Assembly (NCBI GenBank): GCA_965267575.1
Contig: OZ254086.1
Span: forward strand, 2,439,805 to 2,503,804
Reading direction: 5' to 3'
Length of the DNA stretch: 64,000 nucleotides
DNA from: Calditrichales bacterium
GTDB lineage: Bacteria > Calditrichota > Calditrichia > Calditrichales > J004
The stretch's first letter is position 1; every line of letters starts with the position of its first letter. Of the stretch, positions 44,826 through 50,155 are shown piece after piece. The position numbers and the translations under genes were made by a program. Under the pieces are notes generated by a model. The model made no database searches. It was not told the origin of the DNA and saw only the letters and a list, made by a program, of their open reading frames with translations.

Positions 44826-47009
44826 ATGAGTAACCAAGGCAAATGCCCGGTGGCGCATAAGCCCGGTGGCGGTACCACAAACCGCGACTGGTGGCCGAAC
44901 CAGCTTAACCTGCGCATCCTGCACCAGCACTCCAATAAATCCAACCCCATGGGTGAGGATTTTAACTATGCCGAAGAGTTTAAAAAGCTCGACCTGAAAG
45001 CCGTCAAAAAAGACCTGTTTGAGTTGATGACCTCGTCGCAGGACTGGTGGCCGGCGGACTTTGGCCACTACGGGCCGCTGTTTATCCGCATGGCCTGGCA
45101 CAGCGCCGGCACCTACCGCATCGGTGATGGCCGCGGCGGGGCTTCAACCGGCACACAGCGTTTTGCGCCGCTCAACAGCTGGCCGGACAACGTCAACCTG
45201 GATAAAGCGCGCTTTTTGTTGCTGCCGATCAAGCAGAAGTACGGCCGCAAAATCTCCTGGGCCGACCTGATGATCCTGGCCGGTAACTGCGCCCTGGAAT
45301 CGATGGGGCTGAAGACCTTTGGATTTGCCGGTGGCCGTGAAGATGTCTGGGAACCGGAAGAAGACATCTACTGGGGCGAAGAGGCCGAATGGCTGGGTGA
45401 CAAGCGCTACAGCGGCGACCGCGAGCTGGAGAACCCGCTGGCCGCCGTACAGATGGGCCTGATCTACGTTAATCCCGAAGGTCCCAACGGCGAACCCGAT
45501 CCGGTTGCTTCGGGGCGGGACATCCGCGAAACGTTTGCCCGTATGGCCATGAACGATGAAGAAACCGTCGCGCTGACCGCCGGTGGTCACACCTTTGGTA
45601 AATGCCACGGGGCCGCGCTGGAGAGTCACCTGGGCCGCGAGCCGGAAGCTGCCGGCATCGAAGAGCAGGGCCTGGGCTGGAAAAGCACCCATGGCAGCGG
45701 CGTTGGCGGTGACACCATCACCAGCGGCCTGGAAGGCGCCTGGACCACCAACCCGATAAAATGGGACATGGGCTATTTTGATATGCTGTTTGGCCATGAG
45801 TGGGAACTGACCAAGAGTCCCGCCGGTGCCTATCAGTGGCAGCCTAAGGATATCAAAGAAGAGGATATGCCGCCGGCCGCGCACGATCCGTCCAAAAAAG
45901 AGATGCCGATGATGACCACGGCCGATATGGCCATGCGCATGGACCCGGCCTATGAAAAAATCTCACGCCGTTTCCACAAAAATCCGGAAGAATTTGCCGA
46001 TGCCTTTGCCCGCGCCTGGTTCAAACTGACCCACCGCGACATGGGACCGAAGCAGCGCTTCCTTGGACCGGAAGTGCCGGATGAAGAACTGATCTGGATG
46101 GATCCCATCCCGGAAGTGGACCATGAGCTGATCAACGATAAAGACATCGCCAACCTGAAGAGCAAGATCCTGGCTTCCGGCCTGAGCATCCCGCAGCTGG
46201 TTTCCACAGCCTGGGCCTCGGCTTCCACATTCCGCGGTTCGGACAAGCGCGGTGGCGCCAATGGCGCGCGTATCCGCCTGGCCCCGCAGAAGGATTGGGA
46301 AGTGAACCAGCCCGAGCAGCTGAAGAAAGTGCTGAACACTCTGGAAGGCATTCAAAAGGATTTCAATAAGACGCAAAACGGTGGCAGTAAGAAAGTCTCG
46401 CTGGCCGACCTGATCGTGCTGGGTGGCTGCGCCGCCGTGGAAGAGGCCGCCAAAAAAGCCGGTCATAAGATCAGTGTGCCGTTTGCACCGGGCCGCAGCG
46501 ATGCCACGCCGGAACAGACCGACGCCGATTCTTTTGCCGTTTTGGAACCGGCCGCCGATGGCTTCCGCAATTACCAGAAGCAGAAGTATGCCGTATCCGG
46601 TGAAGAATTGCTGCTGGACCGCGCCCAACTGCTTACGCTGACCGCGCCGGAAATGGCGGTGCTGGTGGGTGGTATGCGCGCCCTGGATGCCAACTTCAAG
46701 CAAACCAAGCATGGCGTCTTCACCGATAAGCCGGGCACACTGACCAACGACTTCTTCGTCAACCTGCTGGACCTGGGCACCACCTGGAAAGCCACGTCCG
46801 AAGATGACGAGCTGTTTGAAGGTCGCGACCGCAAGACGGGCAAAGTAAAATGGACCGGCACCCGTGTCGATCTCATTTTCGGCTCCAATTCGCAGCTGCG
46901 TGCCATCTCCGAGGTCTACGGCTCAGCCGATTCCGAAGAGAAATTCGTCACGGATTTTGTCGCCGCCTGGAACAAGGTGATGAACCTGGACCGCTTCGAT
47001 CTGCAATGA
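44826..47009 (+). CDS. katG: Catalase-peroxidase
   Basis: Full-length KatG signatures ([27 protein letters not shown], two-lobe architecture). AGGAGG RBS. Confidence 0.97.
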
Positions 47010-47478
47010 GGATTGAATGATTGAAATTAAAGGCTCCGTGGGTTTGGCCCGCGGGGCCTTTTTTGTTTTTGGGGCTATATGGCGTACCGATGGTACGCAC
47101 GTTTTTTGTAGATGCCGTTTTCTACCTATGTGTTGTCCCTGCGGGACATATCTGAAGTATGGATTGATTCAAGTAATTGTTGATTTATGCGTAATATTCG
47201 ATCGTATGTTTTTGAAGAATCCGCATTTCATTGGTAGGCAGCATTATTCACCGTCCGTCCCGTAAGGGACATGATATGGGTAGAATGGGTATACGAAATA
47301 CACCGGTCTGGGCCGCCAGGTACAGTATGTAATACAACACGATTGAAATACATAAATGTGAATCGATGCATAAATCGGACACGAAATTTTCTCCCCATTT
47401 AATGATCTTATGGTGTACCGACGGTATGCTGGTTTTCTTGTAGATGCTGCTGTCTACCCATATGTTGTCCCTTCCGGA
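46948..47478 (+). repeat. Direct repeat copy 1: katG 3' end + terminator + REP-like units
   Basis: Near-identical by eye to 49619..50155 over about 0.5 kb. Similarity begins at GTCACGGA.TTT and ends inside a GTCCC hairpin. Confidence 0.85.
47032..47064 (+). terminator. katG rho-independent terminator
   Basis: GGCTCCGTGGG-TTTGG-CCCGCGGGGCC (11-bp stem with two G-U pairs) followed by T6. Confidence 0.75.
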
Positions 47479-48008
47479 TATATAATCAAATGTAAAGAGC
47501 TTCGTTTAATTATATAAAAGTTTTACCGTGTAATGTTTGTTCTTTTATCGGGGAGTGATTATACTAAACCCATTCTGCTTGATTCTTCGTTTGTCTCAAT
47601 CTGCGGTTTGTTTTTAAGATTGTCGAAATTTTAGCTGATTAAAAAAACTGACTATTTTATTTGCCCAATGGTCCTGGCATTGATATTACTTATTTAGCCA
47701 ACGTATTTAGATCCATAGATCCTGGTTGCTGATCTGATGGGGTCTTATTTAACAGACGTTATCTTTATATAGGCAAATAAGCCGTTTGAAATAAGAAATC
47801 TGTGATCAGGAGAGCATATGGATTCTTCTTATTCTTTTGCAAAAAGAGAGTTAATTCGTTGTAGTCGCACATACACAGATTGTGTAAGTCCCCGGTCCCC
47901 TCAGGATTTTTATTTAAAAGTATGTTTTAAATACATGTTTGACTGCTTCTGACAGGTCATGCTTTTTCTATTACGTTTTTAAAGTCAAGAAAAAGGAAGG
48001 ATTAAATT

Positions 48009-49607: not shown

Positions 49608-49618
49608 AAGTTTTTTGT

Positions 49619-50155
49619 TTGTCACGGAATTTCTTCTCCGCCTGGAACAAGGTGATGAACCTGGACCGCTTAGATCTGCAATAGGGATTGAATGATTGAA
49701 ATTAAAGGCTCCGTGGGTGTTTGGCCCGCGGGGCCTTTTTTGTTTTGGGGTATTTTATGTGGCGTACCGATGGCACGTAGGTTTTTTGTAGATGCCGTTT
49801 TCTACCTATGTTTTGTCCCTGCGGGACATATCTGAAGTATGGATTGATTCAAGTAATTGTTGATTTATGCGTAATATTCGATCGTATGTTTTTGAAGAAT
49901 CCGCATTTCATTGGTAGGCAGCATTATTCACCGTCCGTCCCGTAAGGGACATGATATGGGTAGAATGGGTATACGAAATACAGGGGTCTGGGCCGCTAGG
50001 TACAGTATGTAATACGACGCGATTGAAATACATAAATGTGAATCGATGCATAAATCGGACACGAAATTTTCTCCCCATTAAATGATCTTATGGTGTACCG
50101 ACGGTATGCTCGGTTTTTTGTAGATGCTGTTGTCTACCCATGTTTTGTCCCGAGG
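49619..50155 (+). repeat. Direct repeat copy 2: katG 3' fragment (non-functional) + terminator copy + REP-like units
   Basis: CGCCTGGAACAAGGTGATGAACCTGGACCGCTT.GATCTGCAAT.AGGATTGAATGATTGAAATTAAAGGCTCCGTGGG... matches 46948 onward. Confidence 0.85.

What the first reader, a model, noticed from the sequence alone, without database searches (positions are those of the whole stretch)
46948..50155. katG 3' end, its terminator and about 1.5 REP-like units are duplicated as a roughly 0.5-kb direct repeat flanking a 2.2-kb cargo
- **Seen:** 46948..47478 and 49619..50155 are near-identical by eye. Each covers the last about 60 nt of katG, the stop region, the terminator hairpin, an A-B half unit and most of a B'-A'-A-B module.
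- **Seen:** the second copy lacks the rest of katG, so it is a dead fragment placed 12 nt after the stop of the SBBP/T9SS gene.
- **Seen:** between the copies lie an AT-rich 0.5-kb stretch (47480-48008) and the SBBP gene.
- **Seen:** the left junction falls in the 3' arm of a GTCCC...GGGAC hairpin. GTCCCTTCCGGA|TATATAATC replaces the intact GTCCCGAGGGGACAAAAC of copy 2.
- **Inference:** the layout fits one of two routes. One is Campbell-type integration of a circular molecule carrying cargo plus a homologous katG-REP segment. The other is a hairpin-associated breakage/repair event linked to the nearby Y1 transposase. This is the same design (a gene 3' end duplicated around cargo) as at 34.4-39.2 kb.
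Basis: partly seen in the sequence, partly recalled or inferred. Interest (0 to 1): 0.6.

Follow-up and report, generated by a model that had tools for sequence, protein, structure and literature searches.

The report
Gene insertion flanked by duplicated katG tail
A 2.1-kb foreign gene for a secreted beta-propeller protein sits just after the catalase-peroxidase gene katG, between two diverged copies of the same 0.53-kb stretch, and a related genome has the same locus without the insert; this is a real but fairly ordinary recombination scar.

Summary
Window 46944-47471(-47480) and 49618-50151(-50160) are direct repeats, 94% identical over 537 aligned columns. Each holds the last 66 nt of katG, its terminator and three REP-like units. 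Between them lie a 33% GC leader and an intact SBBP/T9SS gene.

A syntenic relative (L081, 73-kb metagenome contig; L082 from a second sample) has katG, 710 nt of REP units, then the Y1 transposase.

The second katG fragment is a decayed pseudogene, which argues against an assembly artefact. The event is not recent. The flanks of the repeat differ by 6-9%, while the central 170 nt are identical (P = 0.0004), so the centre was homogenised or marks the crossover tract.

The best reading is a homologous-recombination insertion-duplication. It is either Campbell-type or a join between a katG+ allele and a cargo allele that carried a katG scar.

A link to the Y1 transposase is weak. One junction abuts a destroyed REP hairpin, but the parallel case at 34.4-39.2 kb has no REP. 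The mechanism cannot be settled from sequence alone. Interest is low to moderate.

The parts
44826..47009 (+). katG (catalase-peroxidase), intact, 727 aa. Its last 66 nt belong to repeat copy R1.
   Evidence: Pfam peroxidase 7e-70. NCBIfam PRK15061 1343 bits. It is 94.6% aa identical to the L081 katG, with dS 0.32.
46944..47480 (+). Repeat copy R1: katG 3' end, terminator, and REP units a (+), b (-) and c (+). The hairpin of unit c is degenerate.
   Evidence: Self-BLAST 94% to 49618-50151. Alignments. REP cores. Folds.
47029..47071 (+). katG intrinsic terminator: a 15-bp stem followed by a T run.
   Evidence: Terminator scan. The stem is unchanged in R2 and in L081.
47133..47302 (+). Central 170 nt of R1, 100% identical to 49813-49982. 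It is an inverted REP pair with a roughly 108-nt spacer.
   Evidence: No difference across this stretch. Permutation of 28 events in 528 nt gives P = 0.0004. Its L081 counterpart is only about 70% alike, so constraint alone does not explain the identity.
47479..48008 (+). AT-rich non-coding leader of the cargo (32.8% GC).
   Evidence: Composition. No ORF of note. No Rfam or tRNA hit. No similarity to L081.
48009..49607 (+). Cargo gene: an SBBP beta-propeller repeat protein with a signal peptide and a T9SS C-terminal sorting domain, 532 aa, intact.
   Evidence: Pfam SBBP, Por_Secre_tail, FlgD_ig. TIGR04183. The nearest database homolog is only 53% identical. The gene is 45% GC. Its C-terminal domain is 35-41% identical to four other T9SS proteins of the window.
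49618..50160 (+). Repeat copy R2: a dead katG 3' fragment (49618-49684), an intact terminator (49704-49738) and REP units a, b and c. It continues without a break into the REP array.
50161..50835 (.). REP-like array upstream of the Y1 gene: roughly 210-nt modules of inverted REP pairs plus GTACC...GGTAC hairpins.
   Evidence: the repeat finder families D2, D4, D6 and D8. GTCCCNNNGGGAC gives 12 hits, all in 47135-51624, against 1.1 expected.
50836..51297 (+). Y1 (HUH) transposase, 153 aa, RAYT-like in behaviour and subclass-1.2-like in motifs (DHVH, WQ, YIRNQKEHH).
   Evidence: Pfam Y1_Tnp 1e-28. NCBIfam IS200 76 bits and REP_Tyr_transpos 35 bits, the latter below its cut-off. Translation. An 88% aa ortholog sits at the same place in L081.
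51298..51700 (.). REP-like array downstream of the Y1 gene. The arms 50663-50692 and 51341-51370 form an inverted REP pair around the gene.
   Evidence: the repeat finder I2. REP cores.

Best explanation
**What it is.** This is a real and fairly old insertion-duplication. In the ancestor, katG was followed directly by its terminator and a REP array leading to the Y1 (RAYT-like) gene, as in the relative L081. In the window's lineage a 2.14-kb foreign cassette (AT-rich leader plus SBBP/T9SS gene) became fixed between two copies of one 0.53-kb segment. That segment holds the last 66 nt of katG, the terminator and three REP units.

**Most likely route (inferred).** Homologous, RecA-type recombination took place between the resident katG-REP segment and a DNA molecule in which the cargo was already joined to a copy of the same segment. 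That molecule was one of two things:
- a circle that integrated by a single crossover (Campbell-type insertion-duplication); or
- DNA exchanged between two alleles, giving the same end result. One allele is katG+. The other is a cargo allele that kept only a 66-nt katG scar. They would be joined by one homologous and one illegitimate junction, the latter at the foot of a REP hairpin.

**Consequences (shown).**
- The left copy keeps katG whole, with its own terminator.
- The right copy gives the SBBP gene a terminator, and its katG piece has decayed.

**Later history (inferred).** The central 170 nt of the two copies were homogenised by gene conversion, or they mark the crossover tract. No transposase or integrase is needed.
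For: - **Repeats:** direct, collinear and sharply bounded, at 94% identity.
- **Empty site:** L081 and L082 come from two independent samples and are syntenic at 84-91% nt over more than 15 kb. They show katG stop, 710 nt of REP units, then the Y1 gene. They hold no SBBP remnant (tblastn and blastn) and no second katG piece.
- **Cargo looks foreign:** GC is 33% and 45% against about 50-54% for the surroundings. The nearest protein homolog is 53% identical among 5.8 billion proteins.
- **No recombinase:** none is found in the cargo or among the large ORFs scanned across about 58 kb of the window; the few at 53.4-64 kb were not scanned and match L081 genes without a recombinase domain.
- **R2 decayed in place:** its katG piece carries one synonymous change, three non-conservative changes at conserved residues and a frameshift. 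The terminator stems are untouched in both copies.
- **Uneven divergence:** 28 differences lie in the flanks and none in the central 170 nt, P = 0.0004. This is expected from a crossover or conversion tract between diverged homologs.
- **Second case of the same topology:** a 354-nt segment at 34451-34804 / 38093-38419 flanks a 3.3-kb Mg-transport cargo and contains no REP. That points to a general recombinational route.
- **Deletion scars occur in this clade:** L081 keeps an 85-nt 3' remnant of the ADP-ribosylglycohydrolase gene. This makes a 'cargo allele with a katG scar' plausible.
Against: - No circular form, donor, or cargo-only allele was found. The SBBP gene is an orphan, so no other filled site exists in the databases.
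- In the left 155 nt, R1, R2 and L081 are about equidistant. A duplication clearly younger than the species split does not predict this. It requires an old event, a diverged donor, or uneven rates.
- The model does not explain why dead 3' fragments begin only 6-10 nt after the stop codon of the preceding cargo gene. This occurs at three junctions in the window (49618, 38093, 39148).
- One junction lies at a REP hairpin. Pure homologous recombination treats that as coincidence, at roughly 8-25% by chance.
- With a single outgroup, polarity (gain here versus loss in L081) rests on parsimony and composition only.
Confidence: 0.5

Rival explanations
1. Hairpin-associated breakage and repair. A break at the foot or loop of REP unit c was made by the neighbouring Y1/RAYT protein or by a hairpin nuclease at a stalled fork. 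It was repaired by capturing foreign DNA, with template switching back to the chromosome 0.53 kb upstream (MMBIR/FoSTeS-like). This duplicated the interval.
For: - Junction J1 lies at 47472-47481, in or immediately 3' of a REP hairpin. That hairpin is destroyed in R1 (z = -0.57) but is a perfect 10-11-bp stem in R2 (z = -4.4).
- A Y1 transposase lies 3.4 kb away, inside the same REP array.
- Both junctions are sharp, with no extended homology.
Against: - The other junction (46944 / 49618) is in katG coding sequence, with no hairpin.
- The cargo has no subterminal hairpins.
- As far as is known, Y1 transposition (IS200/IS605, REPINs) makes no target duplication, let alone one of 0.53 kb.
- The parallel duplication at 34.4-38.4 kb has no REP at either junction.
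- The chance that a random junction in the 470-nt non-coding part falls on some hairpin is about 8-25%.
Confidence: 0.2
2. Reversed polarity. The R-cargo-R layout predates the split from the L081 lineage, and L081 lost the cargo plus one repeat by homologous recombination between the two 0.53-kb copies. The empty site would then be a revertant.
For: - In the left 155 nt, R1, R2 and L081 are about equally distant. Unique events number roughly 5-7, 10 and 5.
- The R2 katG piece shows 7.6% neutral-looking decay, which is large compared with a katG dS of 0.32 between the two genomes.
- Direct repeats of this size recombine readily.
- The L081 lineage demonstrably deletes genes at this locus (ADP-ribosylglycohydrolase scar).
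Against: - The cargo is compositionally foreign and has no relative above 53% identity.
- From 47099 onward R1 and R2 are 96-100% alike, while L081 differs at 24 of 50 positions.
- The origin of the duplication would still need one of the other mechanisms.
Confidence: 0.12
3. Remnant of a site-specific integrative element that targets the 3' end of katG and carries a replacement 3' end, as islands at tRNA genes do. Its integrase has since been lost or acts in trans.
For: - The target gene's 3' end is restored by the left copy, and the displaced fragment lies at the far end of the cargo.
- The X gene at 34 kb has three 3'-end copies separating different cargos in both the window and L081. This resembles tandem accretion at an att site.
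Against: - No tyrosine or serine recombinase is found in the cargo or among the large ORFs scanned across about 58 kb of the window; the few at 53.4-64 kb were not scanned.
- The repeat is 0.53 kb and extends 470 nt beyond the gene, far more than an att core.
- The fragment start points share no motif (49618, 38093, 39148).
Confidence: 0.08
4. Assembly artefact: a falsely duplicated or chimeric join in a metagenome-derived single-contig genome.
For: The source is one 4.73-Mb contig known only from NCBI/ENA, with no second assembly. Some differences are homopolymer-length changes.
Against: - The copies differ at 28 events, including 20 or more substitutions.
- Copy 2 is a decayed pseudogene rather than a second functional allele.
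- Both copies carry changes that are derived relative to L081.
- An artefactual join would need sequence overlap between the SBBP 3' end and katG, and there is none.
Confidence: 0.03

Closest known systems
Campbell-type insertion-duplication (single-crossover integration of a circular DNA carrying a chromosomal segment, as in laboratory insertion-duplication mutagenesis)
   Same: Two collinear direct repeats of one contiguous chromosomal segment flank heterologous DNA. One copy stays joined to the upstream gene and the other to the downstream DNA. No recombinase gene is needed, and an empty site exists in a relative.
   Different: No circular donor is known. The repeats are 6% diverged, with an identical core. 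Natural examples carrying a single cargo gene are seldom documented. The origin of the first cargo-to-repeat joint is unexplained.
Homology-facilitated illegitimate recombination and transformation-driven merodiploidy (for example E. coli conjugation, PMC3240628; S. pneumoniae merodiploids, PMC3784515)
   Same: One homologous anchor plus one illegitimate joint can add foreign DNA. Exchange between sister or alternative molecules produces duplications bordered by repeats.
   Different: Those systems were shown experimentally in other phyla. The pneumococcal duplications are 100-900 kb and lie between pre-existing repeats. Competence of this organism is unknown.
REP / REPIN-RAYT systems (Bertels and Rainey 2011, PMC3116915; Quentin et al. 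2018, PMC6006769)
   Same: The duplicated segment is built largely of REP-like hairpin units. The array surrounds a single, vertically retained Y1 transposase flanked by inverted REPs. From my own knowledge, REP arrays are known sites of rearrangement and insertion.
   Different: The duplication includes coding sequence and a terminator. It is far longer than a REPIN and is not bounded by REPs on both sides. The Y1 protein carries the subclass 1.2 motif set, for which no REPs were reported.
Genomic islands integrated in the 3' end of a gene, with a displaced 3' fragment as attR
   Same: The target gene stays intact, and a dead 3' fragment of it marks the far end of the inserted DNA.
   Different: No integrase is present. 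The repeat is 0.53 kb instead of a short core, and it extends well past the gene end.

Membership tests
Campbell-type insertion-duplication product | Two direct, collinear copies of one contiguous chromosomal segment flanking heterologous DNA | tested here: met
   46944-47471 vs 49618-50151, 94% identity over 537 columns. No homology beyond the junctions.
Campbell-type insertion-duplication product | A related genome with a single copy of the segment and no cargo (empty site) | tested here: met
   L081 and L082 show katG, 710 nt of REPs, then the Y1 gene, with no SBBP gene and no second katG fragment.
Campbell-type insertion-duplication product | A circular donor or intermediate carrying cargo plus the homologous segment | not testable with these tools
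   No read data are available. The cargo has no match in plasmids or phages and no close homolog anywhere.
Site-specific integrative element at a gene 3' end | An integrase or recombinase gene inside or next to the element | tested here: not met
   Pfam and NCBIfam scans of the cargo and of large ORFs across about 58 kb of the window found none apart from the Y1 gene; the few ORFs at 53.4-64 kb were not scanned and match L081 genes without a recombinase domain.
Site-specific integrative element at a gene 3' end | Short identical att core repeats at both ends | tested here: not met
   The repeats are 0.53 kb and 6% diverged, and they extend 470 nt past the stop codon.
IS200/IS605- or REPIN-type Y1 transposition | A mobile unit bounded by subterminal hairpins recognised by the Y1 transposase | tested here: not met
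   Only the left junction abuts a REP. The right cargo end (49560-49617) and the katG breakpoint (46944) have no REP hairpin.
IS200/IS605- or REPIN-type Y1 transposition | Insertion without target duplication | tested here: not met
   A 0.53-kb duplication flanks the cargo.
REP-RAYT system (for the hairpin units and the Y1 gene) | A single Y1 gene flanked by inverted REP copies, at a conserved chromosomal place in relatives | tested here: met
   Inverted pair 50663-50692 / 51341-51370. An ortholog (88% aa) sits between katG and the GNAT gene in L081. The same REP core flanks homologs in L085 and L089.
REP-RAYT system (for the hairpin units and the Y1 gene) | A protein matching a RAYT model, and REPs dispersed genome-wide | tested here: inconclusive
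   NCBIfam REP_Tyr_transpos scores 34.9 bits against a cut-off of 80, while the IS200 model scores 76 bits against a cut-off of 55. All 12 GTCCCNNNGGGAC hits in the 64-kb window cluster at 47.1-51.6 kb. The rest of the genome was not available.
REP-mediated tandem duplication | A join point formed between two REP copies | tested here: not met
   One boundary is in katG coding sequence (46944), and the cargo separates the copies.

The most novel reading that the evidence does not exclude
The katG case and the X-gene case at 34-39 kb may be products of one dedicated, integrase-free way of adding gene cassettes in this lineage. In both, a dead 3' fragment of the target gene begins only 6-10 nt after the stop codon of the last cargo gene. 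This is seen at 49618, 38093 and 39148. In L081 the counterpart of 39148 shows it too, and a fragment there lies 19 nt after another cargo gene. Different cargos sit between conserved fragment copies in the two genomes. Gene 3' ends would then act as reusable attachment and terminator modules, somewhat like an integron without an integrase, possibly helped by the local Y1/HUH enzyme.
Probability: 0.1. Interest if true: 0.7.

Novelty: new member of a known kind. Interest (0 to 1): 0.3.

Why it matters
The locus gives a clean natural example, with a matching empty site, of how a single accessory gene is added next to a housekeeping-type gene without harming it. The duplicated 3' end keeps katG whole, and the second terminator is reused by the newcomer.

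It also shows that the stretch from the X gene to the Y1 gene is a hotspot where cargo turns over between close relatives. If the same layout recurs across the full genome, it would point to a general recombinational route of gene gain in this poorly studied group. That group is probably Balneolales, judged only from the names of the closest Y1 homologs. As a single locus it does not change current understanding.

Tried and rejected
- **Exact-protein look-ups:** katG, SBBP and P0001 returned no contig. The source genome's proteins are singletons at 90% identity.
- **The one genome-contig scan, spent on katG:** the best hit was only 80% aa, in Desulfobacterota MAGs. In hindsight the Y1 protein was the better anchor.
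- **Metagenome DNA scan:** a 31-mer conserved in R1, R2 and L081 gave 0 hits, so that collection lacks this clade.
- **Second metagenome scan, with the X protein:** it returned only relatives at 39-63% identity, with no repeated fragments. It was uninformative.
- **Closest SBBP homolog (P0003, 53%):** it lies in an unrelated context.
- **More distant Y1 homologs (72-76%):** they sit in other loci without katG, so no outgroup was available to polarise R1/R2/L081 differences.
- **Other scans of the region:** Rfam, tRNA and small-ORF scans of 44-53 kb found nothing. The cargo has no match in the plasmid or phage collections.
- **Rejected: tandem duplication followed by insertion exactly at the join.** It needs an improbable precise second hit.
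- **Rejected: REP-REP unequal crossover.** One boundary is not a REP.
- **Rejected: Y1 'peel-and-paste' of the cargo.** There are no hairpin ends, and the duplication is unexplained.
- **Rejected: assembly artefact.** See the rival explanations.
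Full report
**1. The observation**

- A self-comparison of the window finds one strong direct repeat: 46944-47471 against 49618-50151. It is 94.0% identical over 537 columns with 8 gap openings. The repeat finder, MAFFT and a global alignment confirm it.
- Copy R1 holds the last 66 nt of katG (44826-47009; catalase-peroxidase by Pfam and NCBIfam). It also holds a 15-bp terminator stem with a T run (47029-47061) and three REP-like cores (47122-47148 on +, 47257-47283 on -, 47454-47480 on +).
- Copy R2 has the same parts. It begins 10 nt after the TAG stop of an intact 532-aa gene at 48009-49607. That gene has SBBP beta-propeller repeats and a T9SS sorting domain.
- The 530 nt between R1 and that gene are 32.8% GC and non-coding.
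- Homology stops sharply on both sides.

**2. The left junction**

- The last REP core of R1 reads CTACCCATATGTTGTCCCTTCCGGATA. After GTCCC it still matches the REP consensus (TTCGGGACA) at 7 of 9 positions. The core is therefore probably complete but carries two changes in the 3' arm.
- The junction lies somewhere in 47472-47481.
- As single-stranded DNA this unit no longer folds (z = -0.57). Its R2 counterpart forms a perfect 10-11-bp hairpin (z = -4.4).

**3. The surroundings**

- All 12 matches to GTCCCNNNGGGAC in the 64-kb window fall in 47135-51624, against 1.1 expected.
- They form roughly 210-nt modules on both sides of a 153-aa Y1 (HUH) transposase gene at 50836-51297.
- An inverted REP pair brackets that gene (50663-50692 / 51341-51370).
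- No integrase or recombinase is found among the large ORFs scanned, which cover about 58 kb of the window. The few at 53.4-64 kb were not scanned; their L081 counterparts carry no recombinase domain.
- The window is chromosomal. It carries CTP synthase, a sigma-70 factor, QueC and several other T9SS substrates.

**4. A relative with an empty site**

- The Y1 protein has an 88%-identical homolog (P0123) on a 73-kb JGI metagenome contig, fetched as L081.
- L081 is syntenic with the window at 84-91% nucleotide identity:

| L081 | Window | Content | Identity |
|---|---|---|---|
| 6977-9433 | 44694-47147 | katG, terminator, first REP | 90.7% |
| 9504-10537 | 50344-51372 | REPs and Y1 gene | 73.3% |
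| 10740-11523 | 52597-53382 | GNAT gene | 84.4% |
| 11616-20453 | 54072-62900 | RND efflux operon and beyond | 85.2% |

- In L081 the katG stop (9290) and the Y1 start (10001) are separated by 710 nt made only of the terminator and REP units.
- L081 has no SBBP gene, no remnant of it by tblastn or short-word blastn, and no second katG fragment.
- A 2.2-kb Logan contig from another sample (L082) shows the same katG-to-Y1 arrangement. L083 shows the same Y1-to-GNAT arrangement.

**5. Age and history of the copies**

- *Three-way alignment (A2; counts).* Both copies carry derived states.
  - R2 keeps the TAG stop and GGGGTAT seen in L081, while R1 has TGA and a 3-nt deletion.
  - R2 alone has a +1 frameshift and V->F, A->S and F->L changes at residues that are conserved at the KatG C terminus (conservation stated from my own knowledge of KatG sequences).
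  - One synonymous change, three non-synonymous changes and a frameshift is the pattern of neutral decay, not of a second functional allele.
- *Terminators.* The stems are unchanged in both copies, so both are probably in use.
- *Where the differences lie.* There are 28 events in 528 nt. About 9% of positions differ in the left 189 nt and about 6.5% in the right 169 nt. None differ in 47133-47302. A gap this long has P = 0.0004 by permutation. The L081 counterpart of this core is only about 70% alike. Constraint alone therefore does not explain the identity. Gene conversion or a crossover tract does.
- *Unexpected equidistance.* In the left 155 nt, R1, R2 and L081 are about equidistant (13, 10 and 11 substitutions).
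- *katG divergence.* katG has the lowest synonymous divergence of twelve window-L081 gene pairs. Its dS is 0.32, against 0.47-1.64 for the others.
- *What this implies.* The event may be nearly as old as the species split. Alternatively, one copy came from a diverged donor. A third possibility is that katG has its own exchange history. I cannot separate these possibilities.

**6. Mechanism**

- *What any explanation must produce.* The topology is repeat-cargo-repeat, with one copy contiguous with upstream DNA and the other with downstream DNA. A single reciprocal exchange between the resident segment and a molecule carrying cargo plus the same segment produces exactly this.
- *Second possibility: a join of two alleles.* One allele is katG+, like L081. 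The other has the cargo replacing most of katG and leaving a 66-nt scar. The illegitimate joint would fall at the REP foot. The second allele is plausible because L081 itself carries just such a scar. An 85-nt 3' remnant of the ADP-ribosylglycohydrolase gene sits immediately upstream of its GNAT gene.
- *The two are equivalent for most purposes.* I rank them together as the best explanation, with confidence about 0.5.
- *The Y1 or hairpin-break route.* It is supported only by the position of one junction. Four points count against it:
  - the other junction lies in katG coding sequence;
  - the cargo has no hairpin ends;
  - Y1 transposition is not known to make long duplications;
  - the parallel case in this window has no REP.

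**7. The parallel case at 34-39 kb**

- A 354-nt segment is present at 34451-34804 and, more decayed, at 38093-38419. It comprises the 3' end of a 160-aa membrane-protein gene X, the intergenic region and the first 90 nt of a lipoprotein gene Y. The two copies flank 3.3 kb that carries a truncated CorC-like piece, an MscS-like gene and two MgtE-type genes.
- A third X fragment lies at 39148-39237.
- L081 also has three X-end copies but different cargo between them. Those repeats therefore predate the split, and the cargo has turned over.
- At all three window junctions the dead fragment starts 6-10 nt after the stop codon of the preceding gene. I have no explanation for this regularity, and I list it as the basis of the most novel reading.

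**8. Comparison with known systems**

- The structure works like a Campbell-type insertion-duplication or a product of homology-facilitated illegitimate recombination.
- It fails the tests for a site-specific island: there is no integrase and no short att core.
- It fails the tests for Y1/REPIN transposition: there are no bounding hairpins, and a long duplication is present.
- It fails the test for a REP-REP tandem duplication: one boundary is not a REP.
- The hairpin array with its Y1 gene behaves like a REP-RAYT system.
  - The gene is single, sits at an orthologous position, and is flanked by inverted REPs.
  - The same REP core flanks homologs in L081, L085 and a Rhodohalobacter genome (L089).
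  - The protein carries the DHVH / WQ / YIRNQKEHH signature of TnpA-Y1 subclass 1.2. Quentin et al. 2018 listed no REPs for that subclass (PMC6006769).
  - It scores below the NCBIfam RAYT cut-off.

**9. Verdict**

- The empty-site test supports an insertion in this lineage, though loss in the L081 lineage is not excluded.
- The mechanism is most likely ordinary homologous plus illegitimate recombination, not a transposase-driven event.
- It is a new member of a known kind, of low to moderate interest (0.3).
- The recurring stop-codon-proximal fragments and the REP association of a subclass-1.2 Y1 protein are the two things worth a further look.

Noticed in passing
window 34143-39300; L081 1-3660: The 3' end of a 160-aa membrane-protein gene X (34143-34625) occurs three times: 34451-34592, 38093-38159 and 39148-39237. 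The start of lipoprotein gene Y (38280-38419) is duplicated as a dead piece at 34665-34804. L081 also has three X-end copies, with different cargo between them: a 67-aa gene, a Y1_Tnp fragment and MazE-Fic, in place of the window's MscS/MgtE genes. Each dead fragment starts 6-10 nt after the stop of the preceding gene.
   Followed up: partly
window 50836-51297 with 50161-51700; L081 9300-10740; L089 5600-6900; L085 5900-6600: The Y1 transposase has the subclass 1.2 motif set (DHVH, WQ, YIRNQKEHH). The 2018 survey (PMC6006769) listed no REPs for that subclass. Here and in three relatives (72-88% aa) it is flanked by a conserved REP-like core, CTACCYATRT..TTGTCCC-loop-GGGAC, in inverted orientation. 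That is RAYT-like behaviour.
   Followed up: partly
L081 10740-10829 vs window 52597-52687: L081 lacks the ADP-ribosylglycohydrolase gene (window 51809-52672) but keeps a frameshifted 3' remnant of about 85 nt directly upstream of the GNAT gene. The gene was therefore deleted in the L081 lineage rather than gained in the window.
   Followed up: yes
window 44694-47147 (katG block): katG is 59% GC in a window that averages 50%. It has the lowest dS (0.32) of 12 window-L081 gene pairs (the others are 0.47-1.64). This hints at a separate transfer or exchange history, or at strong codon bias.
   Followed up: partly
window 39373-44504 vs L081 3686-6857: The DNA between the third X fragment and katG differs completely between the two genomes. 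The window has a ResIII/DEAD helicase (1100 aa) and a low-GC Sll1717-family P-loop ATPase with a weak anti-phage model hit. L081 has an AAA_15/AAA_21 ATPase and two unknown genes. It looks like a defence-island-type variable slot.
   Followed up: no
window 50139-50164: The last REP of copy R2 is a perfect 10-bp palindrome (GTTTTGTCCC GAG GGGACAAAAC), longer than the 6-bp stem of the other units. Its loop (GAG) resembles the inverted-orientation loop (GAA). This could be a fold-back or loop-flip repair signature, or chance.
   Followed up: no
window 30398-31510: A gene of 32-35% GC encodes a CarboxypepD_reg/fn3-domain protein. It sits in a region that rises to 50-60% GC just downstream and may be another foreign insert.
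   Followed up: no
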